Source: an uncultured Prevotella sp. (GTDB lineage: Bacteria > Bacteroidota > Bacteroidia > Bacteroidales > Bacteroidaceae). Taken from it: a stretch of 64,000 bases of DNA. The stretch spans positions 1,297-65,296 of the forward strand of contig CAZXGQ010000002.1 in NCBI GenBank assembly GCA_964640415.1. Reading direction: 5' to 3'. The notes beneath the pieces are model-generated. The model saw only the letters and a program-made list of their open reading frames with translations. It had not been told where the DNA came from and searched no databases. Positions 9,971 to 64,000 of this stretch are shown here, one piece after another. Within the stretch, counting starts at the first letter, position 1, and the number at the start of each line of letters is the position of its first letter. A program made the position numbers and the translations under genes.

Positions 9971-9979
9971 TACGTATCT

Positions 9980-10822: not shown

Positions 10823-10836
10823 GACTGATATGTTTT

Positions 10837-13208: not shown

Positions 13209-13220
13209 GACAGATACCCT

Positions 13221-14543
13221 TTACTTGCAACCATAATGTTCGTCTATCTGCTTTCTCACCACGAAGGTGACGCCGACCGTAACGAGACAGCAAAGCATGA
13301 CCATCCAGAAGAAGTTGACATAGCCTATCGCTTCTTGTATATAACCCGCCACAAAGCCGGGGAGCATCATGCTGAGTGCCATGAAAGCCGTACAGATGGC
13401 ATAGTGGGATGTCTTGAACTCTCCCTCTGAGAAGTACATCATGTAAAGCATATAGGCGGTGAAGCCGAATCCGTAGCCGAACTGTTCTATGCACAAGGCG
13501 ACGGTGATAACCACGATGTTTGACGGCTGCGCCATGGCCAGATACACGTAGATGAGGTCAGGCAGGGTTAGGGCCGCGGCCATGATCCACAACGAGCGTT
13601 TCAGTCCCAGCCTCGACGCCACGATGCCGCCAAGGATGCCACCGCCAAGAAGTGCTATGACACCAAATGTACCATAGACAAGGCCCACCATGTCGGTACT
13701 GAGACCAAGTCCGCCAACTTCAGTGCCATGCACGAGGAATGGCTGGCACATCTTGACAAGGAAGCCCTCGGGCAAACGGAAGAGGAGCATGAACGCTATC
13801 GCCCACCCCACATTCGGCTTCTTGATGAATGTGGCGAACGAGCCCGTCAGCTCACTCCACTTGCCATTGCCTGCCGGATCTTTGGATGTGTCGACACGCG
13901 GACGGTCGGCATCGGCATGTGGCAGGCAGAACGTGTGGTAAAGGGTTACGACGAAGAATATGGCGGCACTCAACCCAAGGGTCACCTTCCAGGAATAAGG
14001 GATATCTCCAGTATTGCTCTCTACCGTGCCCGCGATGAAGACCAGCACGCCTTGTCCGAAGACAGAGGCAACGCGATAGAAGGTGCTGCGTATGCCAATG
14101 AACGCCGCCTGACTGCTCGGGCTGTGGGCCAACATATAGTAGCCGTCGGCAGCTATGTCGTGGGTGGCAGAGGCGAAGGCGGCAATGATGAACAACACCA
14201 GCGTCAGCGTGAAGAGGCTGATAGGTGTCTGGCCGCCCGCTATCATCTGCGCCGACGGAAACGGCAATGTGAACGTGAGGGCCACCAGCAAGACGGTAAG
14301 CAACGCCTGCATGGTGACAATCCACCAGCGCTTGGTCTTCACCACATCGACCAGCGGGCTCCAGATGCCTTTGAGGAACCAGGGGAAATAAAGCAATGTG
14401 GTAAAGAATGCCATGTCGCCATTGGGCACGCCCATCTTTGTGAACATCATCACGGAGATGTTGTTCACTATGAAATAAGGCACGCCCTCAGCAAAATAGA
14501 GTGTGGGGACCCACGCCCACGGAGTGATGTTCTTACTGTTCAT
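13221..14543 (-). CDS. ampG: AmpG-family MFS muropeptide permease
   Basis: 440 aa with about 12 hydrophobic segments. The N-terminus [33 protein letters not shown] is typical of AmpG. Confidence 0.8.
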
Positions 14544-17964: not shown

Positions 17965-20900
17965 CTATTCTTTCTTGGTGAGATACTGCATGACGGTCTT
18001 CATAAGGCCATCACGTACAGATTCACTCCTCACCGACTCGAACGGGAACGCGAGCACGCACGTGCGCCAGTTGTCGGTGCCGTTGCCTCCGAACACTATG
18101 CCTGCCGACATGCCGTTCTCCGGGTAACGGAAAGCAGTATAGGCACACGGATCGGCCGGATCAATGGCATCGGGCGACTCCACCACATAGGAGGTGCTGT
18201 TCGGCTTATTATAGTATGTGAACGAGGTCGTGTCGGAAACGAGCGGTGACACTATATAGGCCACTTGTCCGTCGGTGCAGGCACGGTCTTCTCGCCACTG
18301 GTATTTAAGTATCTTCCCGGCAAAGTCACGGTCGGTCTTTTGGCTTTTCGCCCGTGGGTCCGACGTGGCAAGCGGATTCTGCCACAAGTCTGTGCCTACA
18401 TAGGCGCCAGAGACGAACACGGGGCCGCCAGCCTTGCAGAAGGCTGTGAGCAACTGCTGCATGGGCTCGTCGAAGGTCTTGAATGCCAGCGGATGCAGTC
18501 CGGGACGACCAAACTTGGTCTGCTTCTCCTTGCCGAGAATGAGGTCTATGGCTGAATAGGCATCGGTTAGTTGCTTGCCGTCGAATGCATCGCCGCTGCC
18601 GTCGGTCTCAGACAAACCTATTGCCGCACGGCTCTTCGAGACGAAACTGTAGCCGGCTTTCAAAAGGCTTTTGCCGTGGAGAGCCGGATAATCGAATGTA
18701 TTTCCGGCAATGGTTATGCGCTCCTCGTTGCCATAGCTGTCGCCGAAGCCTGACGCATCGTCGTGAGTCCACGGGATGTCGCGCCGGAACTCCTTCATCG
18801 CCCCTACATAGGATATCAGCTCACGGTCGGGCACACCGTTGTCGTTGGCTGCAAGGAATCCGGCAAAATTGTCGTCGCTGCTGACGAAATCGTCGGGGGC
18901 GCTGACGCGGTCGAAACCATTGATGACCAGCACCGGCTTTGCCGTCGTCTTGCCAGACAGGCCCAAAGACATGACTTCCGAGGGCAAGCTCTCGCCTCCG
19001 TCGTTCAATGCTGTAACCTTGAAGCTCACCACTTCGTCCATAGGTATGCTGGTGACGTAAACATTTTTCTTCACCACAGTGCCATTGTCGAAATCGCCGT
19101 CACCTACCCGCTTGTACACCACGAATTGCTTTGCCAGGGCTGTAGGCTCAAGACTGTCGGCCACGGCTTCCCACGTAACGACAGCCTGGTTCTTGTCGTT
19201 CAGAGTGGCGTTGACCGCTTTGACCGGCAGTGGCTGGACAATGTAAGGATAGCCGTATTCGGTGCTGAGGAAGCGGAGAATGCCTTTGTATATAGCGCGG
19301 CCTACAAGGAAACGGAAACGGGGGTCAAGGCCATAGCGCATGTCGGCGAAGTTCTCGTGCGACATGAGCTCAAGCAACATTGCCGGAACGCGCGGCACCC
19401 AAGCCTCAAAATAGCGTTGGTTCCACATTCCGCGGCGCGTCCACTTAGGATCGGCTTGAAGCCTAAGGTCCCGGGTTATCTGTGTTTGCACAAGGTCGCA
19501 CAGGTCGCGGTTGGCATCTCGCGAAGTGCCATCGGCAAACACGCCGCCATATTGCGACGTCTGGTAAATGCCAAGATTGCCGATGATGGAGTCGCCCCTC
19601 ACGGTGCCGGCATCGCTGTGGAAAGCGAACGACAGGGCGACGGGTATGTTCAGTCCTTTGGTGTCGGGACAGGCGCGCGTGCCGCCTGCGAGATAGTTGA
19701 CCCAAATGCCGCGGTCGCGATAGTCGTCGGTATAGTCGTTTGTTCCGTGCGAGGGAGAATATACGCTGTCTGGTATGCCCGCCCATTGCAGATAATAGCG
19801 CGAGCCTTCGAGATAGCGCGGGTAACCGCTCACCTGCGGCACATAGTCGAGCTTCGGCTGATAGGCGTTGCGGTCGCTCTGGTTGTCGCTGCTATGGCCT
19901 TTGGTGTAGGTCGTGATCTTGTCGCCGTCGGCTGTGCGCGCCACGTTGCCCATGCCTCCTCCGAACTTCACAGCATCGGCAGTAAGCACCCTGCCGGCGG
20001 TCTTGCTATAGTTGGTAAGTTCCACAAAGCCGCCGTCGCCCTTGGCGAAACTGAACGTGCCAAGGTATATCCACGTGCCGCCGCCCATGGTCTGGTTGAC
20101 AGAGAAGCGGGTGGTTCCGTCCTTATGGTGAACGGTATAGCGGGCGTCTTCCGTGCTGTTGGGCAACGTCTTGTAGGCCACATAGACGGCATAGCGGCCG
20201 TCTACGGGTATCTTCGGCGTCCACCGTGCCGAGGCATGGACGCTTTCTTTTTTGCTGTTGGTTGTAATCACTTGCCTGAAAGAGCCTTCCGTGAACGGGT
20301 TCTGGAAGCCTGTATACTGCTTGCGGGCATAAGCGAAGCCCGTGCCGTCACCCTGACTCCACGCCTGGGAGCCATTCTGTTCGGAATATGGCGACACGGC
20401 CAGCTTGCCGTCGTTGTCGACCACCACCTCGGCAGGGTTTGTGTCACGCTCGCGGGGCATCATGACATAAGCCCCGGCACTCTCGAGCATCGGGACGAGG
20501 TAAGGCAAGACAAAGCTCTGGGTAAACTTGTCCTCAACGCTCTCGAAGAGGCGCGAGCGCTGCCATTCCCAACGGTTCAACCCCTGCTCGAAATACTTGC
20601 CGTGGCTCTGCCACAAGGCTATATGCTTGTCCTGCAAGCCGTTCTTCACGGAGTAGGGACGGTCGAGATTGGTGACGATGGGCGTAAAAGGCGTATAGCT
20701 GCTCTTGCCCGTATATTCTGCCGGAACATTGTAGAATGCCTTTCTGCGGTCGGCCTTGGCTTTAAAATAGTTGGGTATGAGCGACTGTATGTCGTGCCCG
20801 TTGATATAAAGCGCCAGATGCCTTTGGCGCAACTCGTCGGGCAGACATCCGCTGACAGTCTTCAAAATCTCACCTACGTTGTCGGGGCGCATAGGCACAT

Positions 20901-23190: not shown

Positions 23191-23610
23191 TTGTAAAGAA
23201 TTATAGCAAGATTTTAACACTTGAGGGGCACACCATCCAGGACGACCGAAGAGACCCTGAAGTGTTAAAAAGGGAGCCTCCAAGCCGATTTTAGGCCCCA
23301 AAAGCATAAAATCGGGTCGCGATAGTAGCACTATCGCATCGCGATTCTAACGTAAAGGCGTTGCGATTCTAACGTAAAGGCGGCGCGATTCTAACGTAAA
23401 GCCGATTTCGGGAACCATAATTCAGGTCTTATTTTAGGCTGTAAAAATATAACCACCTAACTATTAAGGCGTTATAAAAATCACTCATAAATCGCTCAAA
23501 TGCGCACGAGAGGAAATGTTTTTCAAAAAAATCGATTTTTAGAGAGCCTTTTGTTGAGATTTTTTCACCTCTTACTTGCCTCCCGCTCCACGTGGTCTGT
23601 CGGACGCGCC
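23191..23610 (-). repeat. Copy A of an unclassified structured intergenic repeat family (reverse orientation relative to copies B and C)
   Basis: Hand alignment of its reverse complement with 47206-47729 and 63685-64000. It contains 3 x 22-bp tandem units at 23335-23400, hairpins at 23319-23337 and 23285-23315, and the palindrome AAAAATCGATTTTT at 23526-23539. Confidence 0.85.
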
Positions 23611-23827: not shown

Positions 23828-23876
23828 CAATAAATTAAGGCGGCGCTCAAGTTATGAGTGCCGCCTTAATTTATTG
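23828..23876. terminator. 17-bp-stem hairpin between tRNA-Val and the convergent Rpn gene
   Basis: CAATAAATTAAGGCGGC ... GCCGCCTTAATTTATTG. The right arm overlaps the last codons of the 23871-24830 ORF. Confidence 0.7.
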
Positions 23877-24830
23877 TTGTTTCACGAATTGTTTGATTTC
23901 GTCAATGCCTAATCCCGTGGCCTGAGAAATCACTTCTACAGGTATATTTTGGGCCAAGAGGTTAAGAGCAATGTTCTTTTTCTCTTCAGCCTTTCCTTCG
24001 GCTCTACCTTCGACCCTACCTTCGGCCTTTCCTTCTGCTCTACCTTGGGTTCTGCCCTCTTCAATGCCCTGCGCCCGTCCTTCGGCCAATCCTTCCAACT
24101 TGGCATTGCCAAGCACGTCGTTTTGTATCATGATGGCATTGAGGTGCTCGTCGTAGGCATGGCGCTCCGCGTCTGACATCTCATAATATTTCAACTTCTC
24201 GCGTGCCTCCTGCAGCCCCGGCGTCTTGGTATCAGGAGAGATTTCTCCATTCTTAAGATAATTTACCCATTCCTCCAATGGCGACACAGCAACCTTGTTA
24301 AACTCGTTGACACGCACAAGAATATACGTGGGGAATATCTCTGACGGCGATTTCCTCACAATGTTGTTCTTTTCCTTCGCGCTTATCACGAGCCGGTCTT
24401 TGGTGTGAAGCCCTACAAAGTTGTTCTGGCCAATGTAGATATAGTCGGAACCCTTGCCAAGGTCGAAATAAAGTATACTTATGGAGTATACCTTCTTTAC
24501 CTCTTTATAACTGTTTCCAAGGTTGATGTGCTCGGTTATAGCCTTTGCAACACCGTAGAGCACACGCTCAAGGTAGTATAGCTCGCTCGTGTTTTGTATC
24601 TCCACGATGATTATCTCGCCTTTGCTGTTCTTTGCCTTGATGTCGACGCGGTTGAACTTGTCGTCTTCCCTTTGCTGGTTTCCTTCACTTTCAAGTATCT
24701 CCATTATCTTCACCTCTTCGTTCAAGAAGACGGTGAGGAATCCTTCCAGCACGCCAAAGTTGGCCTTCTGGCGGAGCAACCGCTTTATTGCCCAGTCGAA
24801 GCGTATGTATCTGTCTCTAAGTTCTGTCAT
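23871..24830 (-). CDS. Rpn/YhgA-like PD-(D/E)XK recombination-promoting nuclease (putative transposase family TIGR01784)
   Basis: 319 aa. The N-terminal FDWAIKRLLRQKANFGVLEGFL and D...EIQ nuclease core are typical of the family. The C-terminus has the family's repetitive EGRAQGIEEGRTQGRAEGKAEGRVEGRAEGKAEE tract. Confidence 0.85.
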   Translation of the reverse strand: MTELRDRYIRFDWAIKRLLRQKANFGVLEGFLTVFLNEEVKIMEILESEGNQQREDDKFNRVDIKAKNSKGEIIIVEIQNTSELYYLERVLYGVAKAITEHINLGNSYKEVKKVYSISILYFDLGKGSDYIYIGQNNFVGLHTKDRLVISAKEKNNIVRKSPSEIFPTYILVRVNEFNKVAVSPLEEWVNYLKNGEISPDTKTPGLQEAREKLKYYEMSDAERHAYDEHLNAIMIQNDVLGNAKLEGLAEGRAQGIEEGRTQGRAEGKAEGRVEGRAEGKAEEKKNIALNLLAQNIPVEVISQATGLGIDEIKQFVKQQ

Positions 24831-24989: not shown

Positions 24990-26093
24990 TTATTCATTAA
25001 GGAACTTCTTCATTTCCCCGAATGACGGCAAGGCTTTTCCAGTTGCATTGTCGAACAAGCCTCGGTTGAGCCAACTCTTGATTTGGGTGTTTCCCGACTC
25101 GTTCTCCTCGGGGAACCACCAGAACAAGCCCGTGACCTGAGGATGCTTGTTGAGTTCCTCCACAAGGTCTCTGGTAAAGGATGTCTGACCTTCAACGCTG
25201 ATGGGATAAAACTCTGAGAACTCGTCCGCACTCTTCGCCCACTTGTCGTTCTTATGGGAATAGTAGGCGGCTGCTTCCACTATCATGATTTGCTTGGCAG
25301 GATAACGCCGGGCAAGATTGTCGAGTGTGTTGTGGAGCACGGGAATGCGGTCGTGCCACATGGGATAATAGCTCAACCCGATGATGTCGTAGTCGAGGTT
25401 GACTGTTGCCAAGCGGTCATAGAACGCCTTGGTGTTGTCCCATTTTCCGGCCTGCTCCGTATGGATGATTATCTTTGCCTTGGGACAAATTTCCCGACAA
25501 GCCTTGCAACCTTGTTTCAGCATGGCAATGAACTCCTGCCAGTTGGCGTCTTCTGTCGGTGTGGTCTTCGCCGTCGGCCAAAGCATGCCGAAACTGATTT
25601 CATTGCCCACCTGTATGAGGTCAGGTTCTGCTCCTGCATGCTTCATGGCGAGGAGGCTCCGCTTGGTGTATTCGTAGACACTGTCGGCGAGAGCTTCAGC
25701 CGATGCACCTTTCCACGCTGCCGGCGTGAATTGTTTTCCGGGGTCTGCCCACGTGTCACTATAATGGAAATCGAGCATCAGCTGGAACCCAGCTTTCTTG
25801 ATGCGTTTGCCCAACTGCCTGACATAGTTGATGTCCTGACAAACGCCCTCCGCCTTGTGCTCGTCGGGAGCCTGGTCCGGGTCAACGAAGAGGCGCAGGC
25901 GCATCGCGTTCCATCCCTCTTTCTTGAACAGTTTGAGCGCGTTCATCTTCTTGCCGTTGGCATCACGGTAGGCCGTTCCGGCCTGCTCGTACTTCGTGAG
26001 CATGGAGATGTCGCCGCCAAGGAGGCGTTGCTGGGCAAACGAGCCTAACGACCCCATGACGGCAAGCGCCAATGATATGATTGTCTTTTTCAT
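24990..26093 (-). CDS. GH53 arabinogalactan endo-beta-1,4-galactanase
   Basis: 367 aa with a signal peptide. GGDISMLTKYEQ, VQVGNEI-like IQVGNEISFG and the FWWFPE catalytic-region motifs are characteristic of GH53. Confidence 0.85.
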   Translation of the reverse strand: MKKTIISLALAVMGSLGSFAQQRLLGGDISMLTKYEQAGTAYRDANGKKMNALKLFKKEGWNAMRLRLFVDPDQAPDEHKAEGVCQDINYVRQLGKRIKKAGFQLMLDFHYSDTWADPGKQFTPAAWKGASAEALADSVYEYTKRSLLAMKHAGAEPDLIQVGNEISFGMLWPTAKTTPTEDANWQEFIAMLKQGCKACREICPKAKIIIHTEQAGKWDNTKAFYDRLATVNLDYDIIGLSYYPMWHDRIPVLHNTLDNLARRYPAKQIMIVEAAAYYSHKNDKWAKSADEFSEFYPISVEGQTSFTRDLVEELNKHPQVTGLFWWFPEENESGNTQIKSWLNRGLFDNATGKALPSFGEMKKFLNE

Positions 26094-26105
26094 GTGTTGT
26101 CATCT

Positions 26106-26143
26106 AAAAATGATGGCGACTCTTCTCGCGAAAAGCCGCCATC
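26106..26143 (-). terminator. Candidate terminator between the SusF-like gene and the GH53 gene
   Basis: GATGGCG ... CGCCATC stem with an 18-nt loop. On the minus strand it is followed by ATTTTTAG. Confidence 0.45.
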
Positions 26144-26181
26144 GAAATGGATGTTATTTATTATTGATGAAGCAAAAGCAC

Positions 26182-27591
26182 TTATTTCACCTCAGCGGCA
26201 CCGGTCGTGAAGTTCAGGTATGCCTTCTGACCAGCGCTCACGTTCAAGCGAGCTTGGTCGCCGCCCTTGCCACGGTAATCGATCTTGCCGTTGGCAATGA
26301 TGAACTCTGTCTTCCACCAGCCGTCTGGGTCAATGCTGACACACATGCGGAGCTCTGCATCCTTGGCAAAAGCAGGAGACACGAATTGGCCATCCTTCGT
26401 TGTCGGCACGGTGAACTTGTGGCTTGCGTCGACGTTCCACTCGCCGGCAGCATCGCCAATCAAGTAAACGTTTGGCTCAAGGACCTCGAATATACGCTCT
26501 GTGCCATTGGTGACATGGAGAAGGTACCAGCCTGCCTTGCCTGCAACGAGGTTGCCGTCGGCACTGCTTGTGATGCCTGCACCTGCCACGTCCTTGACAG
26601 TGGTGTCGGTATAACCGAAGTCGTTGCCCCAGCCTGCCTGAGGAGCGAACTTGAACTGCTCGCCTTCTGCCAGATACACTACTGTCCAGAACTGGTCGTC
26701 GGTACCGTAGATTGGAATCAACTGCCTCCAGTCGCTCCAGCTGTATTCGCTGCCGGTCATGTACAGTTCTGTAGGCGCAGCCTCAATAGAGTAGGTGTAG
26801 TCCATCATGTTGATGGTCAAGATATACTTGCCAGCCTTGGCAATCTTGCCTGCACCGCAACCTTCGTTGACCAATGAACCGCTCATGGAGTCGTCGCCGT
26901 CTACGGAAGGACCCACAACACCCGGGTTAGCCCAGAATTCGCCATCCACGTTCTCCTGTGGGATGATCTTCCAGTACTGGTTGTCGGCAGTGGTCTCGAA
27001 CGAAACCTTGAACACAGGGTCGTCGTACACATTGTCGTCGCTGTGGGTGAACTTAACCATGCTACTGGCATCCCAGCCCAACATGTCGCCTACGAGATAG
27101 TAAGCTGAAGAGATGTTAGGCTTAACCAATGTGACCAATGTCTGAACTTCGTTAGACTTGGCATAGAAGGCCTGGCCGTTCTGCTTCAGCGATGCGACCA
27201 CTACGGTTTGCAATGTGCGCTGCTCAGGTGCCTTGCCATAGAGAGATTCAACCACACTTACCAAGTCGGCCTTTGCCACCTTACCGGTGGTGCTGGCATT
27301 GATTTCCTGTTTGCTGACTATGTTGCCGCTCTCGTCTGCCTTTCCCAGCTCCACCTTATAGCTAACCACGCTCATTGGGTCTTGACTTTCAATGGAAGCC
27401 GTGAACAAGCTGATGGAGTCGGCGTCTACCGTGGCCATGTCGATGGCTGAGGCAGGAGTTACCGTAAGGGCAACATTCTTGGCCTCATCCTGTGGGTATC
27501 CCTGCGGGTCTGCCCAGTCGTCGTAGTCGCCCTTGCAACTGCTGAAGAGTGCAGTTGCGAGGACCATACCATATATTAATGACTTTTTCAT
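26182..27591 (-). CDS. SusF/SusE-family outer-membrane starch-binding lipoprotein
   Basis: 469 aa with lipobox ALFSSC and repeated W/Y-rich beta-sandwich modules. It sits after the SusE-like gene in a susCDEF-type order. Confidence 0.75.
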   Translation of the reverse strand: MKKSLIYGMVLATALFSSCKGDYDDWADPQGYPQDEAKNVALTVTPASAIDMATVDADSISLFTASIESQDPMSVVSYKVELGKADESGNIVSKQEINASTTGKVAKADLVSVVESLYGKAPEQRTLQTVVVASLKQNGQAFYAKSNEVQTLVTLVKPNISSAYYLVGDMLGWDASSMVKFTHSDDNVYDDPVFKVSFETTADNQYWKIIPQENVDGEFWANPGVVGPSVDGDDSMSGSLVNEGCGAGKIAKAGKYILTINMMDYTYSIEAAPTELYMTGSEYSWSDWRQLIPIYGTDDQFWTVVYLAEGEQFKFAPQAGWGNDFGYTDTTVKDVAGAGITSSADGNLVAGKAGWYLLHVTNGTERIFEVLEPNVYLIGDAAGEWNVDASHKFTVPTTKDGQFVSPAFAKDAELRMCVSIDPDGWWKTEFIIANGKIDYRGKGGDQARLNVSAGQKAYLNFTTGAAEVK

Positions 27592-27615
27592 TATTCAAAT
27601 GCTTTTAGAGTGTTA

Positions 27616-28806
27616 TTACTTGCTGTAGAAGTGGTAGTAACCGGTGATGTCGTTGAAGATGACGGTGTAAGAACCTGCCTTGACAGGAATGTTGGCACCG
27701 TTGTTGGCACCCCATCCGTATGGGAAGCCGGAGCCACCCCAGTTAGGATTCCATGAGCTGTCTACGAGGAACTTCACTTCTGTGTCGGTATCTGTTGTCA
27801 GGTCATATTTCCAGACGTGTGGCTTGGCGCCTGCCCAAGTGTCAACAGGAGTCATCTGCGTGTCTGTGCCCCAACTGTTGAATCCGCCGGAGATGCACAT
27901 TGTGGCATACTCTGCAGGCTCATTGTCGGCAGCCACGATAGAGAGGCTGTTGGTCTTGGTGTTCAGCGTGATGGTGTAGTAACCCGGTGAAGGAACCTTG
28001 AAGTCGCCGCCTTCGCCGCTGTCGTCCTTCTTCTTAGGCTGAGTGATGTCGCCGTCGGTGCCGCCCCACTGGTCTGCCCATTCGCCTGGAGTCTTCACAA
28101 TCTTGAAGCCACCGAGGTCTGAGGTGAAGTAGCCGGTGTAGGTGAGCACGCCCTGACCTGTAGTCTCGTCGTAGGTCTCGCCCTCAACAGGGCACATTGG
28201 GAACACGGCTGTACCAATCTCCGAGCCCCAGCTACCATCACCGACGCAAGCACCGATAAGGTACCAAAGCTCCGGGTCGGCAGCAGTCAAAGCCTGGTAG
28301 AACGGCTTGACGTTCAGCTTGACAACGTTGGAAAAGCACTCATAACCAGAAGAGAGAGTGGCCCTCATCCTTACATATACATCGACGTTGGAAGGCAATT
28401 CTGCTTCGGAAGAATATCCGCCCATCTTCATCACAGCCTTGTTGATGGCAGCAGCGCTGGCATTGGTCTTGGCCTTGTTTGAGTAGCCGTCCAATTCCAT
28501 GTAGTTGGGTGTTTCAGCGGCATTGCCGTCGGCATCCACGGCTTCGGTCCAGTTGTCTGTCAGCGACACCTGTGTATAGTATGACACGGCAGCGGTGAAG
28601 CCGTAAGCCGGCTGGCTGTATGTCAACTCCAGCGAGTCGCTGTTCGCCAGGTCGTATACGTTGCCTGCATAAGCCGGTGTGTTGAGCACGAAGCTCTCAG
28701 GCTGGCTGATTGTCGGGTTTGAATCATTGTCGTCTGCGCAAGACGTGAAGCTGAATGCTGCGACACAGGCGAACAATGACGCTAAAATATATTTTTTCAT
28801 GTTCAT
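27616..28806 (-). CDS. SusE-like outer-membrane lipoprotein
   Basis: 396 aa with lipobox FSFTSC. The N-terminal SusE-type segment (FVLNTPAYAGNVYDLANSDSLELTYSQPAYGF) lies directly downstream of susD. Confidence 0.8.
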   Translation of the reverse strand: MNMKKYILASLFACVAAFSFTSCADDNDSNPTISQPESFVLNTPAYAGNVYDLANSDSLELTYSQPAYGFTAAVSYYTQVSLTDNWTEAVDADGNAAETPNYMELDGYSNKAKTNASAAAINKAVMKMGGYSSEAELPSNVDVYVRMRATLSSGYECFSNVVKLNVKPFYQALTAADPELWYLIGACVGDGSWGSEIGTAVFPMCPVEGETYDETTGQGVLTYTGYFTSDLGGFKIVKTPGEWADQWGGTDGDITQPKKKDDSGEGGDFKVPSPGYYTITLNTKTNSLSIVAADNEPAEYATMCISGGFNSWGTDTQMTPVDTWAGAKPHVWKYDLTTDTDTEVKFLVDSSWNPNWGGSGFPYGWGANNGANIPVKAGSYTVIFNDITGYYHFYSK

Positions 28807-28821
28807 TTATTCTTTAAATGA

Positions 28822-30447
28822 TTAATAACCAGTGTTCTGCTTCAGGTTCGGGTTGTTGGACAACTCGTTGACTGGCAATGGGAAGATGTTCATGTAGCTT
28901 GGGAACTGGTTGCCCTCGTAGGTGCCACCCATCCATTCCCACTTGTACTTCGACTGTCCGGCAAACTTTCCGAAGCGGATCAGGTCCATGCGGCGACGGC
29001 CTTCAAGCCAGAACTCACGGCTCCACTCGTCGCAAACCTCGTCGAGCGTGTAAGTGTTCTTCAGTGTGGCGTTGGCACGTTCACGGAGCTTGTTGATTTT
29101 GGCTGCTGCGTCGGTGTTGCCTGCAGCTCCGTTCTTGCGGATGGAGGCCTCGGCATAGGTGAGGTATGCCTCTGCGATACGCATCACAGGAAGGTCGGTG
29201 TTCACGAATTCAATCACGTCGTTGCTGCTGCCGTCGGAGTTCACATTGCGGAACTTCACACTTGAGTAGCCGAGGTTTTCGTCGGTACCTTCGTCGGTCA
29301 CCGATTCGCTGATGCCCTGGTTGAAGAACAATGCGCGGTCGTCGTTGGCGGCTGTGGTCATATCCTTCAGTGTGGCTGCCTCGGCTGGTGTGCCGGTAAA
29401 GAACTTGTCTACCAGCTGCTTGCGCAAGCGGATACACTTGCCCCAGCTGTTGTTGGCACCGGAAGGAGCGTAGCTGTCAGTAGAAACCTTGTTTGAGTAT
29501 GCGGCCTGAACGAGGAAGTTGGTACCGCCGTAGCTCTTGGTCTTGACACCGTCGAAGAGACCCACAACGAGGTTCTCATACTGTGCACCGTTCTTGTTGT
29601 TGTCTGCCAAGAACAGCATCTGGTATGGAGAGTAAACCTCGCCGGTAGTCGGGTTGACCGAGCCGGTTTTGTTCAGGTGGTAGTAGCCGTCGTTGATTAC
29701 CTTCTCGGCATATGTCATGGCATCGTCCCAGCGGGCTGTACCAGTATAGACCTCTGCATTCAGGTAAAGGCGGGCAAGCAGGTTCCATGCGGCCACACGG
29801 TCGGCACGGCCGTAGGTTGTGGCGCCCGGCTCTGCCATCTTCTCAGCACAAGCTTTCAGCTCGCTCTCCACATAGTCGAACATCTGCTGGCGGTTGTAGT
29901 AGGCGGCCTTCTCTGAAGACACGGTCTCGGTGAATGCACCACCACCGTAGAGGTCCATGACGTCATAATAGTTCAAGGCACGGATGAAGCGAACCTCAGC
30001 GTTGCGCTGCTCGGCATCAGATGCCTTAACGTCCTGCTGCAGATAGAAGTTGCAGAGGGTGATGGTGAAATAGAGGCGGCTGTAGAGGGCTGCTGAGAAT
30101 ACGCAGCTCTCACCCCATGCGTTGTGCAGCAACTCGGGGATACCGGCGTCGGTAGCCCATACCCAGTGAGCCTCGTCAGAGGTAAACTCGTTCAGATACC
30201 ACTTGCTGCGGAAGTAGTCGGAACGGCCCTCATCCACATCCTCGATATCGCCGTTGCCTGAAGGGCCCGACTGGCCTGTAAGGCTGAAACTTGCATAGAT
30301 CTTGTTGAACAAGGCATCTCCGTCAAGCTCCATCGTCTGCTGCGGGTTGATAGGATCCACATCCAGGTCACCCACACAAGAGGTCATGCCCAGAGTGAGT
30401 GTCAATGCTGCAGCAGGTATGATTTTTTTCAATATATTCATTTTCAT
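28822..30447 (-). CDS. susD: SusD-family starch-binding lipoprotein
   Basis: 541 aa with lipobox LGMTSC and a SusD/RagB fold composition. It is immediately downstream of susC. Confidence 0.9.
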   Translation of the reverse strand: MKMNILKKIIPAAALTLTLGMTSCVGDLDVDPINPQQTMELDGDALFNKIYASFSLTGQSGPSGNGDIEDVDEGRSDYFRSKWYLNEFTSDEAHWVWATDAGIPELLHNAWGESCVFSAALYSRLYFTITLCNFYLQQDVKASDAEQRNAEVRFIRALNYYDVMDLYGGGAFTETVSSEKAAYYNRQQMFDYVESELKACAEKMAEPGATTYGRADRVAAWNLLARLYLNAEVYTGTARWDDAMTYAEKVINDGYYHLNKTGSVNPTTGEVYSPYQMLFLADNNKNGAQYENLVVGLFDGVKTKSYGGTNFLVQAAYSNKVSTDSYAPSGANNSWGKCIRLRKQLVDKFFTGTPAEAATLKDMTTAANDDRALFFNQGISESVTDEGTDENLGYSSVKFRNVNSDGSSNDVIEFVNTDLPVMRIAEAYLTYAEASIRKNGAAGNTDAAAKINKLRERANATLKNTYTLDEVCDEWSREFWLEGRRRMDLIRFGKFAGQSKYKWEWMGGTYEGNQFPSYMNIFPLPVNELSNNPNLKQNTGY

Positions 30448-30470
30448 AAAGCTTCTACATTATTATATAA

Positions 30471-33400
30471 TTAGAAATTCAAGTTGAGGCCGAAGACGCC
30501 CGTGAATGGGCGCGGATAGATGTTTCCGTCGTAGCCGCCGTTGATTTCCGGGTCGATGCCCTTATACTTTGTGATGGTAAACACGTTCTGTGCTGTGGCA
30601 TATACACGGCCACTGACTGGAAGACCAAACAGCTTTTCGAAGCTATAGCCCAACGTGATGTTGTCACACTTCAAGAAAGATGCGTTCTGGATGAAATAAT
30701 CAGACAGTGCGTCTTCCGTTGACACATACTGCCAGTTCTTCGGCATGGTCATGTCGGTCACGTTGTGCCATGTGTTGCCGTTGTAGAGGCGTTCCACCGA
30801 GATGTTCGAACGGCCAGCCTCCACTGCATTGTATGCGTAGTTGCCGAGGCTTGCACGGAGCGAGAAGCCGAAGTCCCAGTTTTTGTACATCAGCTTTGAG
30901 CTGAAGCCCATCACCACGTCTGCGTCTGCCTTCTTGTAGAAGTAGCGGTCGGCAGAGTTGATGACACCGTCGCCATTGCGGTCAACAAACTCGCCCTCGA
31001 CAGGCTGTCCGTCCTTGTCGTAGACCTGCTGGTAGGTGTAGTAGGCCGATACAGGGTGGCCCACTGCCCAAGCCTGGATACCGTCAGAACCAGAGTCGCC
31101 TACGGCAAGACCGCCGTGGAGAATCTTGTAGCTGGCATCGTCGCTGGCCACGAGCTTGTCGATGTTGTTGAGGTTGTATGTGAGATTGTAGTTCACCTCC
31201 CATCTCCAATCCTTGGTCTGGACAGGACGGATAGTTGTAGAGAACTCGAAACCTTGGTTGTGAAGCTCACCGATGTTGCTTGTCACCTTGTTCTTGAAGT
31301 TGCTGCCGGCAGAAACGTATACAGTATTGATCAAGTCGGTGGTCTTGCGATAATAGTAATCGAAGCTGGCGGTGATGCGGTCTCTCAGGAAGCTAAGGTC
31401 GAGACCTGCGTTCCATGTTGTGGTCTTCTCCCATGTGAGGGCATCGTTGTATGCATCCGGACGGTAAGTTGTGCCGTCGCCCACGATTGGATAGTAACCT
31501 CCGAGACCGTTTGTGGTATATGAGGCGAAGTAGGTGTAGTCGCCGATGCCTTCCTGCTGGCCGGTCTTACCCCAACCGAGACGGAGCTTCATGTCGGACA
31601 CGGCATCCACATTGCGGAGGAACGACTCTTCCTTGATTTTCCAGGCTGCTGCCACTGATGGGAACAAGCCCCAGCGGTTGTTCTTGTGGAAACGTGAAGA
31701 ACCGTCGTCACGCAGGGTGAATGTCAGCAAGTAGCGATCTGCCAATGAGTAGTTCATGCGGCCGAAGAAGGATACGAGATAGTTCTCGGTCTTGTAGAGA
31801 GTGTTCTCAGACGGGTCCTTGATTTCACCGGCGTGCTCCTTGTTGGTGCTGGGATATGTGCCGTAGTAATAGTAGTCGGTCTTCTTGTGGAAGTGCTGGT
31901 ACTCGTAGCCTGCCATCACGTCGAAGTGGTGGATCTTGGCAAAGTCCTTCAGATACTGGGCATACATGTTGAGCGACAGGTTGTAGGTGTCCTGCGTGTT
32001 CCAGCCCTGGCTGCCATAATAATAGTTGTCGTAGTTGTAGCGGCTGTAGTACTTGTTGCTCTTACCGCTCTTCAAGTCCATACCGCCGTTCACGTGGAGG
32101 TGCAAGTCCTCGAAACCGTGGATCTTATAGTCGAGCTCCAGGTTGCCGCTCAACTCCTTGCCCTTACCCTTGTCGTCGGATGTGTTGAGATAAGCCACCG
32201 GATTGCGGGTTGAGAGTGAGTTGATGGAGTATTTCCAGGAGTCGTCGTTGCGGTCTACCGGACTGCTGTACTGGAAGTATCCGCCGAAATTCTGGTTGTA
32301 GAACTCGCTGTCGATGGTCACGGGCTTTGTCGGGTCCATCTCGCCGGCTGCGCCGATGGCGCTGGTGTTGGCATATGATGTCTTAGAGTACATGCCCTTG
32401 GCGTTGAAGTTCACGGTCAGGTGATCATTGAAGAACGTTGGGTTCAAGTTCACGCTGGCAGTGTAACGCTCGAAGTCGGATGTCTTCAAGATACCCTGCT
32501 GGTTGGTATAACCGAAAGACACACGGTATGGCAGGTTCTTCACTGCACCTGTCAACGTGATGTTGTGGTCGGTGGAAACGGCAGTGCGGTAGATCTCATC
32601 CTGCCAGTCGGTATTGGCGAAGAGATGCTGTGCGCCGCTGGCCGGAGTGCCGTCCGAATTGTATGCGCTCCAGTAGCCCAGGCTCTTGTAGTAGTCGCTG
32701 TTCTCCCATTCCTCTCCGTCGAGTCCGCTTCTTTGCTTTACGAAGTTGATGAATTCGTCTGCGCTCAGCACGTCGAGCTTGTTCTTGACTGTGCTCACGG
32801 AGACATTGCCGTTATAAGAAATGGTTGGCTTCATGTTCTTGCGGCCCTTCTTGGTGGTGATGATGATCACACCATTTGATGCACGGCTACCGTAGATGGC
32901 GGTGGCGGATGCGTCCTTCAAGACTGTGAAGCTCTCGATGTCGTTAGGGTTGACGAGGTTCAAGGGGTTAGACATACCCTGCATGCCATAGTTGTCCATG
33001 GCAAGACCGTCGATTACGATCAACGGGTCGTTGGAGGCGTTCAATGAAGAACCGCCACGGATGCGGATAGATGCGCTGCCGCCAGGCTCACCGCCGCTGT
33101 TCATGACGTTCACACCGGCAATCTTACCCGTGATCATGTCCTGTGCACTCACTTGGAGTCCCTTGTTCTTGTCGTCCGGCTTGATGGCCGTGACAGAACC
33201 CGTCAGGTCGTTCTTCCTGGCAACACCGTAACCGATGACCACGACCTCGTTCAAGGCCTTGGAGTCGTCGGTGAGGGTGATGACTGCGCCGTCAGATGCT
33301 GACAACTTCTGCGGTGTCATGCCGACATAGGAGATGGTAATCTCGGTGCCCGGCGCCACGTTAATGGAGTAGTTACCGTCGAAGTCGGTCACGCCCACGG

Positions 33401-33566
33401 CCTTGCCGTTGGCAGTGATAGTAGCGCCAATGACTGGTTCACCGGTAGAGTCTTTCACATGTCCCTTGACCGCATTAGTCTGCGCCCAAGAGCTTACAGC
33501 CAACAGCAGCCCGCCGGTAAGGACGAGGACCCTGCGAGGCATCTTGAATTTTACCTGCTTCATCAT
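30471..33566 (-). CDS. susC: SusC-family TonB-dependent outer-membrane transporter
   Basis: 1031 aa. It has a carboxypeptidase-regulatory-like N-domain (VKGHVKDSTGEPVIGATI), a plug (TonB box / NEVVVIGYG) and a C-terminal ...GLNLNF ending in an aromatic residue. Confidence 0.9.
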   Translation of the reverse strand: MMKQVKFKMPRRVLVLTGGLLLAVSSWAQTNAVKGHVKDSTGEPVIGATITANGKAVGVTDFDGNYSINVAPGTEITISYVGMTPQKLSASDGAVITLTDDSKALNEVVVIGYGVARKNDLTGSVTAIKPDDKNKGLQVSAQDMITGKIAGVNVMNSGGEPGGSASIRIRGGSSLNASNDPLIVIDGLAMDNYGMQGMSNPLNLVNPNDIESFTVLKDASATAIYGSRASNGVIIITTKKGRKNMKPTISYNGNVSVSTVKNKLDVLSADEFINFVKQRSGLDGEEWENSDYYKSLGYWSAYNSDGTPASGAQHLFANTDWQDEIYRTAVSTDHNITLTGAVKNLPYRVSFGYTNQQGILKTSDFERYTASVNLNPTFFNDHLTVNFNAKGMYSKTSYANTSAIGAAGEMDPTKPVTIDSEFYNQNFGGYFQYSSPVDRNDDSWKYSINSLSTRNPVAYLNTSDDKGKGKELSGNLELDYKIHGFEDLHLHVNGGMDLKSGKSNKYYSRYNYDNYYYGSQGWNTQDTYNLSLNMYAQYLKDFAKIHHFDVMAGYEYQHFHKKTDYYYYGTYPSTNKEHAGEIKDPSENTLYKTENYLVSFFGRMNYSLADRYLLTFTLRDDGSSRFHKNNRWGLFPSVAAAWKIKEESFLRNVDAVSDMKLRLGWGKTGQQEGIGDYTYFASYTTNGLGGYYPIVGDGTTYRPDAYNDALTWEKTTTWNAGLDLSFLRDRITASFDYYYRKTTDLINTVYVSAGSNFKNKVTSNIGELHNQGFEFSTTIRPVQTKDWRWEVNYNLTYNLNNIDKLVASDDASYKILHGGLAVGDSGSDGIQAWAVGHPVSAYYTYQQVYDKDGQPVEGEFVDRNGDGVINSADRYFYKKADADVVMGFSSKLMYKNWDFGFSLRASLGNYAYNAVEAGRSNISVERLYNGNTWHNVTDMTMPKNWQYVSTEDALSDYFIQNASFLKCDNITLGYSFEKLFGLPVSGRVYATAQNVFTITKYKGIDPEINGGYDGNIYPRPFTGVFGLNLNF

Positions 33567-47205: not shown

Positions 47206-47729
47206 GCGCATCCGACAAATAGCATGGAGCGGGACTCGCTGGGCTTAGCCCCATAATGACACGAATGTGCAAACGGTCTAATGTGCAGGGGCATCCCTGC
47301 CATTGGCAACCGTAAACCGGATGGCATAACCACGCAGCCTTCTTTAATAGCAGTAAAAGTTTTCAACAAAGTGCTCTCTAAAAATCGATTTTTTTGAAAA
47401 ACTTTTCCTCTCGTTCGATTTGAGGCCAATTTTACGCAAATTTTACAACATCCTAATAACCAGACGGTTATACTTTTTGCAGTCTTGAACATGGCTGATT
47501 TTTTAGCCTCTGAGTCGGCTTTACGTTAGAATCGCATCGCGTTTACGTTAGAATCGCGGTGCGTTTACGTTAGAATCGCGACGCGATATGGCTACTATCG
47601 CGACCCGATTTCATGACTTTTAAGCCTGAAATCGGCTTGGAGGCGCCCTTTTAAACACTTCGGAGCCTCTGTTGTCGTTCTAGAAGGTGTGCCCCTCAAG
47701 TGTTAAAATCTTGCTATAAATATTTACAA
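47206..47729 (+). repeat. Copy B of the unclassified structured intergenic repeat family
   Basis: Begins 6 nt after the M20 stop codon. It has 3 x 22-bp units at 47520-47585, a hairpin at 47605-47635, and an extra approx 105-nt segment at 47236-47340 that copy A lacks. Confidence 0.85.
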
Positions 47730-53040: not shown

Positions 53041-53160
53041 CCCGATTGAGTCGCCACTGGAATCACAGTGCGATTACGCTGGAATCACAGTGCAGATACA
53101 AAGCAATCGCAATTGGATACAAATGCCACTGCTGAACGTAGCGATTTTCCCGGCGCAATG
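53041..53160 (+). repeat. Degenerate relative of the 22-bp-unit array of the repeat family
   Basis: TTGAGTCGCC followed by 22-bp-phased units. CTGGAATCACAGTGC recurs at 53057-53071 and 53079-53093. TTACGCTGGAATCACAGTGC matches the copy-B unit TTACGTTAGAATCGCGGTGC at 16 of 20 positions. Confidence 0.5.
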
Positions 53161-63684: not shown

Positions 63685-64000
63685 TGTGGACGCAGAACAC
63701 CCACATCAGCACAGGGCGTCTTTGAGAGAGTATTGAAAAAATTCAACAAAAGGCTCTCTGAAAATCGATTTTTCTGAAAAACATTTCCTCTCGTGCGCAT
63801 TTGAGCGATTTATGCACAGATTTCATAACATCTTAACATACAGGCAGTTATGTTTTTCACGGTCTAAAACATGGCATAAAATTGGGCTCTTGAATCGGCT
63901 TTACGTTAGAATCGCGTCGCCTTTACGTTAGAATCGCGTCGCCTTTACGTTAGAATCGCAACGCGATTGTGCTACTATCGCAACCCGATTTCATGGTTTT
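63685..64000 (+). repeat. Copy C of the unclassified structured intergenic repeat family (cut by the window end)
   Basis: Begins about 20-25 nt after the dgt stop codon; the left boundary is fuzzy. It has 3 x 22-bp units at 63900-63965 and a hairpin at 63824-63852. The sequence ends inside the CCGATTTCA hairpin arm. Confidence 0.8.

What the first reader, a model, noticed from the sequence alone, without database searches (positions are those of the whole stretch)
47520..47585. Exactly phased 3 x 22-bp tandem array with an invariant 16-mer in all nine units
Every copy has three units with no spacer: A at 23335-23400, B at 47520-47585, C at 63900-63965. The first 16 nt, TTTACGTTAGAATCGC, are identical in 9 of 9 units. 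The last 6 nt vary (ATCGCG, GGTGCG, GACGCG, GTCGCC, AACGCG, GCCGCC, AACGCC, GATGCG). Surrounding element sequence has diverged to roughly 60-85 percent identity.

A 22-bp period is about two helical turns, which places all sites on one DNA face. That arrangement is seen in plasmid iterons, partition centromeres and arrays for cooperative regulators. If the element is transcribed, three identical 16-mers would suit a protein- or RNA-titrating sponge. The last unit also forms ATCGC-NNN-GCGAT. That can pair alternatively with the downstream ACTATCGC, giving mutually exclusive stems.
Basis: seen in the sequence. Interest (0 to 1): 0.65.

Follow-up and report, generated by a model that had tools for sequence, protein, structure and literature searches.

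The report
Phased 22-bp array inside dispersed repeat
A Prevotella-like gut bacterium carries many copies of a roughly 380-460-base intergenic repeat whose core is three (sometimes four) head-to-tail 22-base units with a 16-base stretch that never varies, most likely a phased docking site for an unidentified DNA-binding protein; it is a new variant of the known dispersed bacterial repeats, not a new kind of system.

Summary
TTTACGTTAGAATCGC occurs 9 times in the window, in three 3 x 22-bp arrays, against 0.01 expected. Copy A is on the minus strand.

The arrays are the core of a modular intergenic repeat of about 377 bp, or about 460 bp with its own terminator hairpin. I found four paralogs in about 80 kb of this species. 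Metagenome depth suggests tens to hundreds of copies. The host is an uncultured Prevotellaceae.

Among the four paralogs no 16-mer column varies (0 of 48), against 40% of columns elsewhere in the element. Metagenome contigs show the same pattern. So this is not a neutral minisatellite.

Unit number is not fixed. Two same-species contigs carry four units at locus C, still in exact 22-bp phase.

Related 22-bp arrays stand alone, without the element's leader or tail. They occur upstream of mraZ in sister species, in another Bacteroidales-like contig, and in degenerate form at window 53051-53116.

Best reading (0.4): a phased DNA docking array for an unidentified protein, spread by a BrickBuilt/BOX/BIME-like element. 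Rivals are an RNA-level function and a site needed in cis for mobilisation. Plasmid iterons and partition centromeres are not supported. No RNA data were available, so transcription is untested.

The parts
47520..47585 (+). Array of copy B: three 22-bp units, each TTTACGTTAGAATCGC plus a tail R-N-Y-G-C-S
47586..47607 (+). Fourth, degenerate in-phase unit (ATATGGCTACTATCGCGACCCG). With the end of unit 3 it forms the small hairpin GCGATA..TATCGC.
47353..47729 (+). Core of repeat element B: conserved 5' module, length-conserved variable leader, array, tail with hairpins, and a conserved end ...CAAGTGTTAAAATCTTGCTATAAATATTTACAA
47730..47810 (+). 3' extension shared by copies B and C only: about 35 nt of linker, a 17-bp GC-rich hairpin and CTTTTG, which looks like an intrinsic terminator
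47364..47420 (+). Conserved 5' module (CAACAAAGTGCTCTCTAAAAATCGATTTTTTTGAAAAAC...). It contains TTTG-N18-TCGATTTG, which resembles a Bacteroidetes -33/-7 promoter.
   Evidence: consensus from PMC7366714
47421..47510 (+). Variable leader: 56-70% identical between paralogs but the same length in every copy compared
23191..23567 (-). Repeat element A (short form, no terminator). It lies 135 nt upstream of a co-oriented SusD-like gene.
23335..23400 (-). Array of copy A, three units, on the minus strand
63734..64000 (+). Repeat element C, cut off by the window end. The full copy, with its terminator extension, is seen in the same-species contigs L037-L042.
63900..63965 (+). Array of copy C, three units here and four in L037 and L042
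53051..53116 (+). Degenerate stand-alone array of three related 22-bp units (e.g. ATTACGCTGGAATCACAGTGCA) between the divergent purL and ompA-like genes. It has no leader or tail.

Best explanation
The three arrays are the core of a lineage-specific repeat that is dispersed between genes of an uncultured Prevotellaceae bacterium. The element has five or six parts: a conserved 5' module, a variable leader of fixed length, three or four 22-bp units, a tail with hairpins, a conserved end, and in some copies its own terminator.

The element has spread to many intergenic sites. How it spreads is unknown.

I infer that the 22-bp unit is a binding site on double-stranded DNA for one sequence-specific protein that has not been identified. 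One protein subunit would bind per unit, contacting the TTAC(G) and AATCGC blocks. These blocks lie about one helical turn apart.

The exact head-to-tail 22-bp spacing is about two turns. It puts three or four subunits on one face of the helix, so they could bind cooperatively.

The element would therefore act as a portable cassette carrying three optimal sites. Depending on where it lands, it would couple neighbouring transcription to that protein or soak the protein up.

**Shown:** the repeat family, its modules, its high copy number, its absence from sister species, the selective constraint on the 16-mer, the kept phase, and related stand-alone arrays elsewhere.

**Inferred:** that the constraint acts on DNA rather than RNA, that a protein binds, and what the effect on transcription is.
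For: **A repeat family**
- There are 9 of 9 exact 16-mers in three arrays.
- The arrays lie in homologous elements of about 377 bp.
- A fourth paralog, D, lies 7 kb left of the window in same-species contigs.
- Element depth in metagenome contigs is 460-780, against 2-40 for flanking genes.
- Short-read contigs break inside the element (L017, L030).

**Lineage-specific**
- The orthologous intergenic sites in species with 87-88% amino-acid identity lack it.
- Genome and metagenome scans find no other such element.

**Constraint on the 16-mer**
- Variable columns among four paralogs: 0 of 48 in the 16-mers, 40% outside them (P about 2e-11). The three 16-mers are the three longest invariant runs in the element.
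- In metagenome contigs, variants above 5% fall only at unit positions 17, 18, 19 and 22.
- Strains with identical flanks differ in the unit tails but never in the 16-mers.

**Phase**
- The 4-unit allele is an exact 22-nt insertion.

**DNA rather than RNA**
- The array is no more structured than shuffled sequence, as RNA or as DNA (z -0.08 and -0.35).
- Related units occur as stand-alone arrays without leader or tail. These lie upstream of mraZ in two groups of sister species, in phase with a second unit type. They also occur in a divergent promoter region of the window and in L011 in mixed orientation.
- Across those diverged units, ATCGC and TT remain the most conserved positions.

**Known parallel**
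- The LytTR regulators PlnC and PlnD bind 9-bp direct repeats, TACGTTAAT, separated by 12 bp. This places them on one DNA face for cooperative binding (PMC2714321). The unit here contains TACGTTAGA repeated after 13 bp.
Against: - No binding protein was identified, and no regulator or transposase gene lies in the window.
- Copies B and C carry their own strong terminator hairpin. The 5' module looks like a promoter. All four paralogs point the same way as the upstream protein-coding gene. Together these features fit a transcription unit, so the array could work as RNA.
- The tail hairpin H2 shows one compensatory change and G-U variants, although other copies break that pair.
- The array lies about 130 nt from the promoter-like element end. 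That is too far for a classical LytTR or AraC activation site.
- The registers used to compare diverged units were chosen by eye.
- Only four independent paralogs could be read in full.
Confidence: 0.4

Rival explanations
1. The element is a multicopy small-RNA gene. A promoter in the leader drives an RNA of 300-390 nt that ends at the element's own terminator. The three or four identical 16-mers are single-stranded binding sites for an RNA-binding protein or a complementary RNA, so the RNA acts as a sponge or scaffold.
For: - The conserved 5' module has a Bacteroidetes-like TTTG-N18/19-..ATTTG motif, and a conserved TATRTTTT lies 51 nt before the array (consensus from PMC7366714).
- Copies B and C share a strong terminator-like hairpin at -33 and -46 kcal/mol (z -7 and -10), found nowhere else in about 590 kb of fetched DNA.
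- The whole B transcript folds better than shuffles (z -3.8).
- H2 shows C-G, U-A and U-G variants at one pair.
- All four paralogs are co-oriented with the upstream gene.
- The array itself is unstructured, as a single-stranded binding platform would be.
Against: - No RNA run holds the element or the organism.
- There is no Rfam match.
- A and D lack the terminator.
- Copy A folds no better than shuffles (z -1.8).
- The H2 pair is broken in copy C, and the inner H3 pair shows no covariation.
- Stand-alone arrays in sister species and in L011 have no leader or terminator, and they occur in both orientations.
- An exact 22-nt period kept across unlike unit types has no obvious meaning for an RNA.
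Confidence: 0.25
2. The array is a cis-acting site of a selfish mobile element. It would be a stack of binding sites for the transposase or recombinase that moves the element in trans, comparable to the 22-bp subterminal sites of Mu or Tn7. It stays conserved because only copies with intact sites spread or are repaired from intact copies.
For: - The family is high-copy, lineage-specific and absent from orthologous sites of sister species.
- Orthologous copies differ in a patchy way that suggests gene conversion between paralogs.
- L011 has one forward and three reverse units forming a 36-nt inverted repeat, which resembles a minimal two-ended element.
- The Mu and Tn7 comparison rests on my own knowledge of those systems.
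Against: - The array lies in the middle of the element, not at its ends, and in one orientation only.
- There are no terminal inverted repeats and no clear target duplication.
- No transposase lies in the window or in any fetched same-species DNA.
- Paralogs of the Rpn-family gene next to copy A lack the element.
- Copies old enough to differ by 30-40% elsewhere still have perfect 16-mers. Selection for spread alone does not explain that.
- Diverged arrays persist at the same mraZ-upstream site in different species.
Confidence: 0.2
3. [quoted passage not shown] It has no function of its own.
For: - Unit number is polymorphic (3 against 4) between strains at one locus.
- BrickBuilt shows that leader - tandem units - tail elements exist in Bacteroidales (PMC4596501).
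Against: - Variable columns: 0 of 48 in the 16-mers against 40% elsewhere.
- Homogenisation within an array would also equalise the tails, yet the tails differ within every array.
- Metagenome contigs confirm the pattern.
- Unit number is 3 in all four paralogs and in at least 8 array-spanning metagenome contigs. BrickBuilt ranges from 1 to 22.8.
Confidence: 0.03
4. The array is a plasmid-type iteron set or a partition centromere, left by an integrated plasmid or similar replicon.
For: Direct repeats of about 22 bp without spacers are typical of iterons and of some centromeres.
Against: - There are four or more dispersed chromosomal copies between housekeeping genes.
- No rep, par or mobile-element genes lie nearby.
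- There is no match in 72,556 plasmids or 50,697 phages, nor in viral contigs.
Confidence: 0.02

Closest known systems
BrickBuilt element of Porphyromonas gingivalis (Klein et al. 2015, PMC4596501)
   Same: - Found in Bacteroidales and strictly intergenic.
- About 19 copies, limited to one species group.
- Built as leader - spacer-free tandem units (23 nt) - tail.
- Within the units, conserved positions are followed by variable ones.
- Promoter activity was reported.
   Different: - BrickBuilt has 1 to 22.8 imperfect units; this element has 3 (rarely 4) units with an invariant 16-mer.
- BrickBuilt has IS5-like terminal inverted repeats; none were found here.
- Some copies here carry their own terminator.
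BOX elements of Streptococcus pneumoniae (boxA - boxB(n) - boxC); comparison from my own knowledge
   Same: - A modular dispersed intergenic repeat with a middle module repeated in tandem.
- More than 100 copies.
- Affects neighbouring gene expression.
   Different: - boxB is 45 nt and varies from 0 to 8 copies.
- BOX elements are thought to act through RNA structure.
- Different phylum and unrelated sequence.
BIME / RIB-RIP elements of E. coli, which carry IHF and gyrase sites; comparison from my own knowledge
   Same: Dispersed mosaic intergenic repeats that carry binding sites for a host DNA-binding protein to many loci. This is the mode of action proposed here.
   Different: - BIMEs are built from palindromic REP units in alternating orientation, with a single IHF site.
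- Here three or four direct, phased sites sit in a non-palindromic element.
LytTR-type operators (PlnC/PlnD, AgrA, ComE); PMC2714321
   Same: - 9-bp direct repeats with a 12-13-bp spacer, giving a period of 21-22 bp on one DNA face with cooperative binding.
- The PlnC/D consensus is TACGTTAAT; the unit here contains TACGTTAGA.
   Different: - Known operators have two repeats directly upstream of a promoter.
- Here 3-4 units with a 16-nt conserved stretch lie about 130 nt from the nearest promoter-like end.
- No LytTR protein is linked to them.
- This is a resemblance only.
Plasmid iterons (e.g. the 22-bp iterons of R6K); comparison from my own knowledge
   Same: Spacer-free direct repeats of about 22 bp bound by one protein per unit.
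   Different: - No replicon context.
- Many chromosomal copies.
- No match in the plasmid collection.

Membership tests
MITE / BrickBuilt-like non-autonomous element | Many dispersed, intergenic, non-coding copies | tested here: met
   - Four paralogs in about 80 kb of this species, all intergenic.
- Depth excess of 10-100 fold in metagenome contigs.
- All six reading frames are closed across the array, read directly from the sequence.
MITE / BrickBuilt-like non-autonomous element | Terminal inverted repeats matching a transposase-encoding partner element | tested here: not met
   - The ends TGAAAAAAT.TCAACAAAAGG and ...TTGCTATAA.T.TTTACAA are not inverted copies of each other.
- No transposase was seen.
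MITE / BrickBuilt-like non-autonomous element | Target-site duplication flanking the element | tested here: inconclusive
   - No shared or duplicated flank is visible at A, B, C or D.
- No exact empty site was available, because sister-species sites are too diverged.
MITE / BrickBuilt-like non-autonomous element | Presence/absence polymorphism at orthologous sites | tested here: met
   - The element is absent after the DapE-like and dGTPase genes in species at 87-88% identity.
- It is present in same-species strains.
BrickBuilt | Leader - spacer-free tandem units - tail architecture | tested here: met
   compared with PMC4596501
BrickBuilt | Freely variable number of imperfect units (1 to 22.8) | tested here: not met
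   - Three units in four paralogs and in at least 8 metagenome contigs; four units in one allele.
- The 16-mers are perfect.
Plasmid iterons / partition centromere | Adjacent rep or par gene, or replicon context | tested here: not met
   - The neighbours are housekeeping genes and polysaccharide-utilisation genes.
- No plasmid or phage match.
LytTR-type operator | 9-bp direct repeats resembling the family consensus, with a 12-13-bp spacer | tested here: met
   TACGTTAGA recurs every 22 bp, against TACGTTAAT plus 12 bp for PlnC/D. A match of sequence pattern only.
LytTR-type operator | Position directly upstream of a regulated promoter, and binding by a LytTR protein | not testable with these tools
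   - There are no transcription start data.
- Promoter motifs are only weak matches.
- The rest of the genome is not available.
Described RNA families (Rfam 15) | Match to a covariance model | tested here: not met
   - Only tRNAs reach the gathering score.
- At the element, only chance microRNA-type hits fall on the terminator hairpin.
Rho-independent terminator (3' extension of B and C) | GC-rich hairpin followed by a T run | tested here: met
   - A 17-22-bp stem at -33 and -46 kcal/mol, followed by CTTTTG or TTTGTG.
- Function was not tested.

The most novel reading that the evidence does not exclude
Prevotellaceae may possess an undescribed DNA-binding protein that assembles cooperatively on 22-bp-phased sites. 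Such arrays are seen upstream of the cell-division (mraZ) cluster in sister species. In this lineage a mobile cassette would have copied three optimal sites to perhaps a hundred or more intergenic positions. That would create a genome-wide regulon, a titration sink or a set of chromosome-organising sites, with a built-in terminator where the cassette faces a convergent gene.
Probability: 0.25. Interest if true: 0.7.

Novelty: new variant of a known kind. Interest (0 to 1): 0.5.

Why it matters
Dispersed repeats in gut Bacteroidales are poorly described, partly because short-read assemblies break at them, as they do here. This family shows an unusually clean signature of selection on a short phased motif inside an otherwise fast-diverging element.

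If a protein binds it, the element would be a natural example of a regulator's binding sites being spread through a genome by a mobile cassette. It would also give a handle on an unknown regulator that may act at the cell-division gene cluster in Prevotella relatives.

There is a practical side as well. The element explains contig breaks in metagenome-assembled genomes of this lineage, and its unit tails and unit number could serve as strain markers.

Tried and rejected
1. **Exact-pattern scans** for the unit in 185,579 species genomes and in JGI metagenomes gave only single chance-level matches. The exception was L011, which holds a real related array.
2. **Viral contigs, plasmids and phages** gave only 10 isolated single 16-mer matches in viral contigs (chance level) and nothing else.
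3. **A protein search with the spurious reading frame** that runs out of the 5' module, meant to fish more copies from gene calls, found nothing.
4. **RNA evidence.** No RNA run holds the element or the neighbouring polysaccharide-utilisation genes.
5. **Link to the adjacent Rpn-family nuclease / putative transposase gene.** Its closest paralog loci lack the element.
6. **Variable leader as an antisense guide.** No complementarity beyond chance was found within the window.
7. **Hypermutation of the leader, as in diversity-generating retroelements.** The differences between orthologs are not biased to one base, and they fall only at positions that vary between paralogs. One gene-conversion tract explains them.
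8. **Structured RNA in the array.** It folds no better than shuffles.
9. **Array as tandem Bacteroidetes promoters.** TACGTTAG matches TAnnTTTG at 5 of 6 positions, with TTTA 20 nt upstream. The mismatch falls in TTTG, which by my own knowledge is the most conserved part of that motif, so I kept this only as a remark.
10. **Pig-gut metagenomes that share purL words** hold neither the species nor the element.
11. **A last look-up for orthologs of copy A** found no exact protein.

Full report
**1. The observation**

The 16-mer TTTACGTTAGAATCGC occurs nine times in the window. There is no further match even at two mismatches. Dinucleotide-preserving shuffles give 0.01 matches on average.

Tandem Repeats Finder reports three arrays of period 22 and about three copies.

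Three corrections apply:
- Copy A is on the minus strand.
- The invariant part extends to TTTACGTTAGAATCGC-R-N-Y-G-C-S.
- A fourth, degenerate unit follows in phase (47586-47607) and is itself conserved between copies.

**2. What the arrays sit in**

Alignment and BLAST show that each array is the centre of a homologous element. Its parts, in order, are:
- a conserved 5' module, 47353-47420 in copy B;
- a leader that is only 56-70% identical between copies but exactly the same length, 135 nt from the module core to the array in all copies checked;
- the array;
- a tail with small hairpins;
- a 93%-conserved end, ...CAAGTGTTAAAATCTTGCTATAA.T.TTTACAA.

Copies B and C share a further 80 nt. This holds a linker and a 17-22-bp GC-rich hairpin followed by a T run. 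The hairpin folds at -33 and -46 kcal/mol (z -7 and -10). It occurs nowhere else in the roughly 590 kb fetched. Copies A and D lack it.

There are no terminal inverted repeats, no evident target duplication and no conserved reading frame. Rfam has no match.

**3. Host and copy number**

The neighbouring genes are typical of Bacteroidota. They include SusC/D/E/F, a GH53 enzyme, NamZ and a single-chain PurL. The closest named homologues of one of them are from Prevotella, Leyella and P. copri. G+C content is about 52%.

Exact-protein look-ups recovered long same-species contigs from ENA metagenome assemblies. These gave six orthologs of copy C, one of copy B, and a new paralog D about 7 kb left of the window. 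That makes four paralogs in about 80 kb.

In three metagenome runs the element's conserved modules reach a summed depth of 460-780. Flanking genes reach 2-40. Short-read contigs end inside the element. The family therefore has tens to hundreds of copies, though the estimate is rough.

Species at 87-88% amino-acid identity keep the gene order but lack the element after the DapE-like and dGTPase genes. Scans of one genome per species and of JGI metagenomes find no other such element. Several pig-gut metagenomes hold neither the species nor the element. The family is lineage-specific.

**4. Constraint**

Among paralogs A-D, 40% of element columns outside the array vary. So do 10 of the 18 tail columns. 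None of the 48 columns of the 16-mers varies. Under a uniform rate that has P of about 2e-11. The three 16-mers are also the three longest invariant runs in the element.

Laying more than 200 contigs from independent metagenomes on copy B gives the same picture:
- Within the array, variants above 5% occur only at unit positions 17, 18, 19 and 22.
- Variants inside the 16-mers are at 1-3% in the deepest run.

Strains whose flanks are identical differ in the tails but never in the 16-mers. Homogenisation within an array cannot explain this, because the tails differ inside every array. The array is therefore not a neutral minisatellite.

The ortholog of B in another strain differs by about 30% in the variable leader, against about 3% in the flanks. 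The differences fall only at positions that vary between paralogs. A single gene-conversion tract from another copy is the simplest reading, though no donor was seen.

**5. Unit number**

All four paralogs have three units. At least eight metagenome contigs span the array without gaps, and no 22-nt joints were reported.

L037 and L042, whose flanks are identical to those of the other strains, carry four units at locus C. The difference is an exact 22-nt insertion.

So the number is usually three and can change by whole units, and the phase is kept. A few metagenome contigs join leader-like sequence to what aligns as unit 2. This could mean two-unit copies or ambiguous placement, and I could not tell which.

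**6. Related arrays elsewhere**

A profile of the element found weak matches in sister species. Between an acyltransferase gene and mraZ, these species carry an in-phase run of eight or nine 22-bp units. Four to six are of one type (CGGCACGTGGCAGCAAATCGGT). They are followed by four of a second type (ATTACGGTGAAATCGCAATGCC) that resembles the element's unit.

Two groups of species keep this run at the same place. The sequence has drifted but the period is unchanged. The window's own species lacks it there.

Two further arrays stand alone:
- The window has a degenerate three-unit array at 53051-53116, between the divergent purL and ompA-like genes.
- The contig L011 is labelled Oscillospiraceae but carries Bacteroidota-type genes. 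It has one forward and three reverse units, GTTACGTTAGTATCGCATCGCC, and nothing else of the element.

Across these diverged units, ATCGC (positions 12-16) and TT (positions 2-3) are the best-kept positions. The registers were set by eye, so this point is suggestive only.

**7. Mechanism**

Four observations favour a constraint acting on double-stranded DNA:
- the unit is conserved on its own, without leader or tail;
- it occurs in either orientation;
- the 22-bp period is kept across unlike unit types;
- the array folds no better than shuffles.

I therefore read the unit as a docking site for one subunit of a sequence-specific protein, with three or four subunits lined up on one face. A documented parallel is the LytTR regulators PlnC and PlnD, which bind TACGTTAAT direct repeats 12 bp apart (PMC2714321). 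The unit here holds TACGTTAGA repeated after 13 bp. AraC-type direct repeats of about 17 bp at a 21-bp period are another parallel, from my own knowledge. These are resemblances, not memberships.

The element would act as a portable cassette of optimal sites.

A real alternative is that the element is a transcription unit and the array works as RNA. Three features point that way:
- the 5' module looks like a Bacteroidetes promoter (consensus from PMC7366714);
- B and C bring their own terminator;
- all four paralogs are co-oriented with the upstream gene.

The two copies with a terminator face convergent genes. The two without one face co-oriented genes. That is four of four, which is too few to test.

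Covariation is equivocal. One H2 pair is C-G, U-A, U-G and C-A in different copies. No RNA data exist for this organism in the runs served.

A third possibility is a cis site for the element's own mobilisation. The central, one-way position of the array, the lack of any partner gene, and the persistence of stand-alone arrays at one site across species all weaken it.

**8.

The palindrome ATCGC-NNN-GCGAT in the last unit and the competing hairpin GCGATA..TATCGC are present in all copies. Folded on their own they are weak (-4.4 and -5.8 kcal/mol as RNA) and not clearly better than shuffles. In the 36-nt context the second, extended to CGCGATA..TATCGCG, folds at -9.3 kcal/mol.

Iterons and partition centromeres are not supported. 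There is no replicon context and no plasmid or phage match.

**9. Comparison and verdict**

The closest described thing is the BrickBuilt element of P. gingivalis: leader, spacer-free 23-nt units and tail, intergenic and species-limited (PMC4596501). This element differs in three ways:
- a nearly fixed unit number with an invariant core;
- no inverted terminal repeats;
- an optional terminator.

It also recalls the BOX elements of pneumococci and the BIME/RIB elements of E. coli, which carry host-protein sites (both from my own knowledge).

I class it as a new variant of a known kind. Interest is moderate. It would rise if a binding protein, or a discrete RNA, is found.

Noticed in passing
L018 18884-19097 (also L023, L024, L031; L021/L022 20080-20260): Sister Prevotellaceae species carry an in-phase run of eight or nine 22-bp units of two types between an acyltransferase gene and mraZ. 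The run is conserved in place and period between species, but its sequence has drifted. The window's species lacks it at that site (L038 5721-6110).
   Followed up: partly
L018 19179-19214; L038 about 5765-5800; L021 about 20315-20340: A 10-bp-period array, AAAGTGGGG x4, lies directly upstream of mraZ. It looks like MraZ operator boxes (from my own knowledge; not tested).
   Followed up: no
window 53051-53116: A degenerate stand-alone array of three 22-bp units related to the element's unit lies between the divergent purL and ompA-like genes. It is identical or nearly so in five strains.
   Followed up: partly
L011 5559-5671: A contig binned as Oscillospiraceae carries Bacteroidota-type genes (DUF5686, a GerE regulator, aminopeptidase P) and a related array of one forward and three reverse units forming a 36-nt inverted repeat. 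The contig is probably misbinned.
   Followed up: partly
L037 8219-8306 and L042 204-291: A four-unit allele of copy C is present in two same-species contigs whose flanks are identical to the three-unit strains. It could serve as a strain marker.
   Followed up: yes
L043 versus L044, 19620-21548: Right next to paralog D the two strains differ. One has a block that includes a WYL-domain gene and the other a SASA-family gene, so this is a strain-variable island.
   Followed up: no
L021 11050-11265 and 17604-18064 (same in L022): A sister species has other GC-rich palindromic repeats in the gaps where the window's species has elements B and C. They share motifs such as CCTCGAAGAGG.
   Followed up: no
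window 23871-24830 (minus strand), with a 12-bp tandem repeat at 23984-24046: An Rpn-family recombination-promoting nuclease / putative transposase gene lies next to copy A, with tRNA-Val between them. Its best database relative is only 88% identical, so the locus seems strain-variable. Its paralog loci lack the element.
   Followed up: yes
L018 19270-19345: The mraZ reading frame appears truncated to about 20 codons (MRFLGN...) in this sister species.
   Followed up: no
window 9140-14543 and 24990-33566: The first stretch holds a MurNAc-salvage-like gene set (NamZ, a SIS-domain MurQ-like protein, an MFS transporter). The second holds a GH53 polysaccharide-utilisation locus (SusC/D/E/F).
   Followed up: no
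window 18000-64000 (composition profile): GC skew is mostly positive up to about 34 kb and negative beyond. Copy A (minus strand) and copies B and C (plus strand) would then share one orientation relative to replication. The signal is weak and there are only three copies.
   Followed up: no
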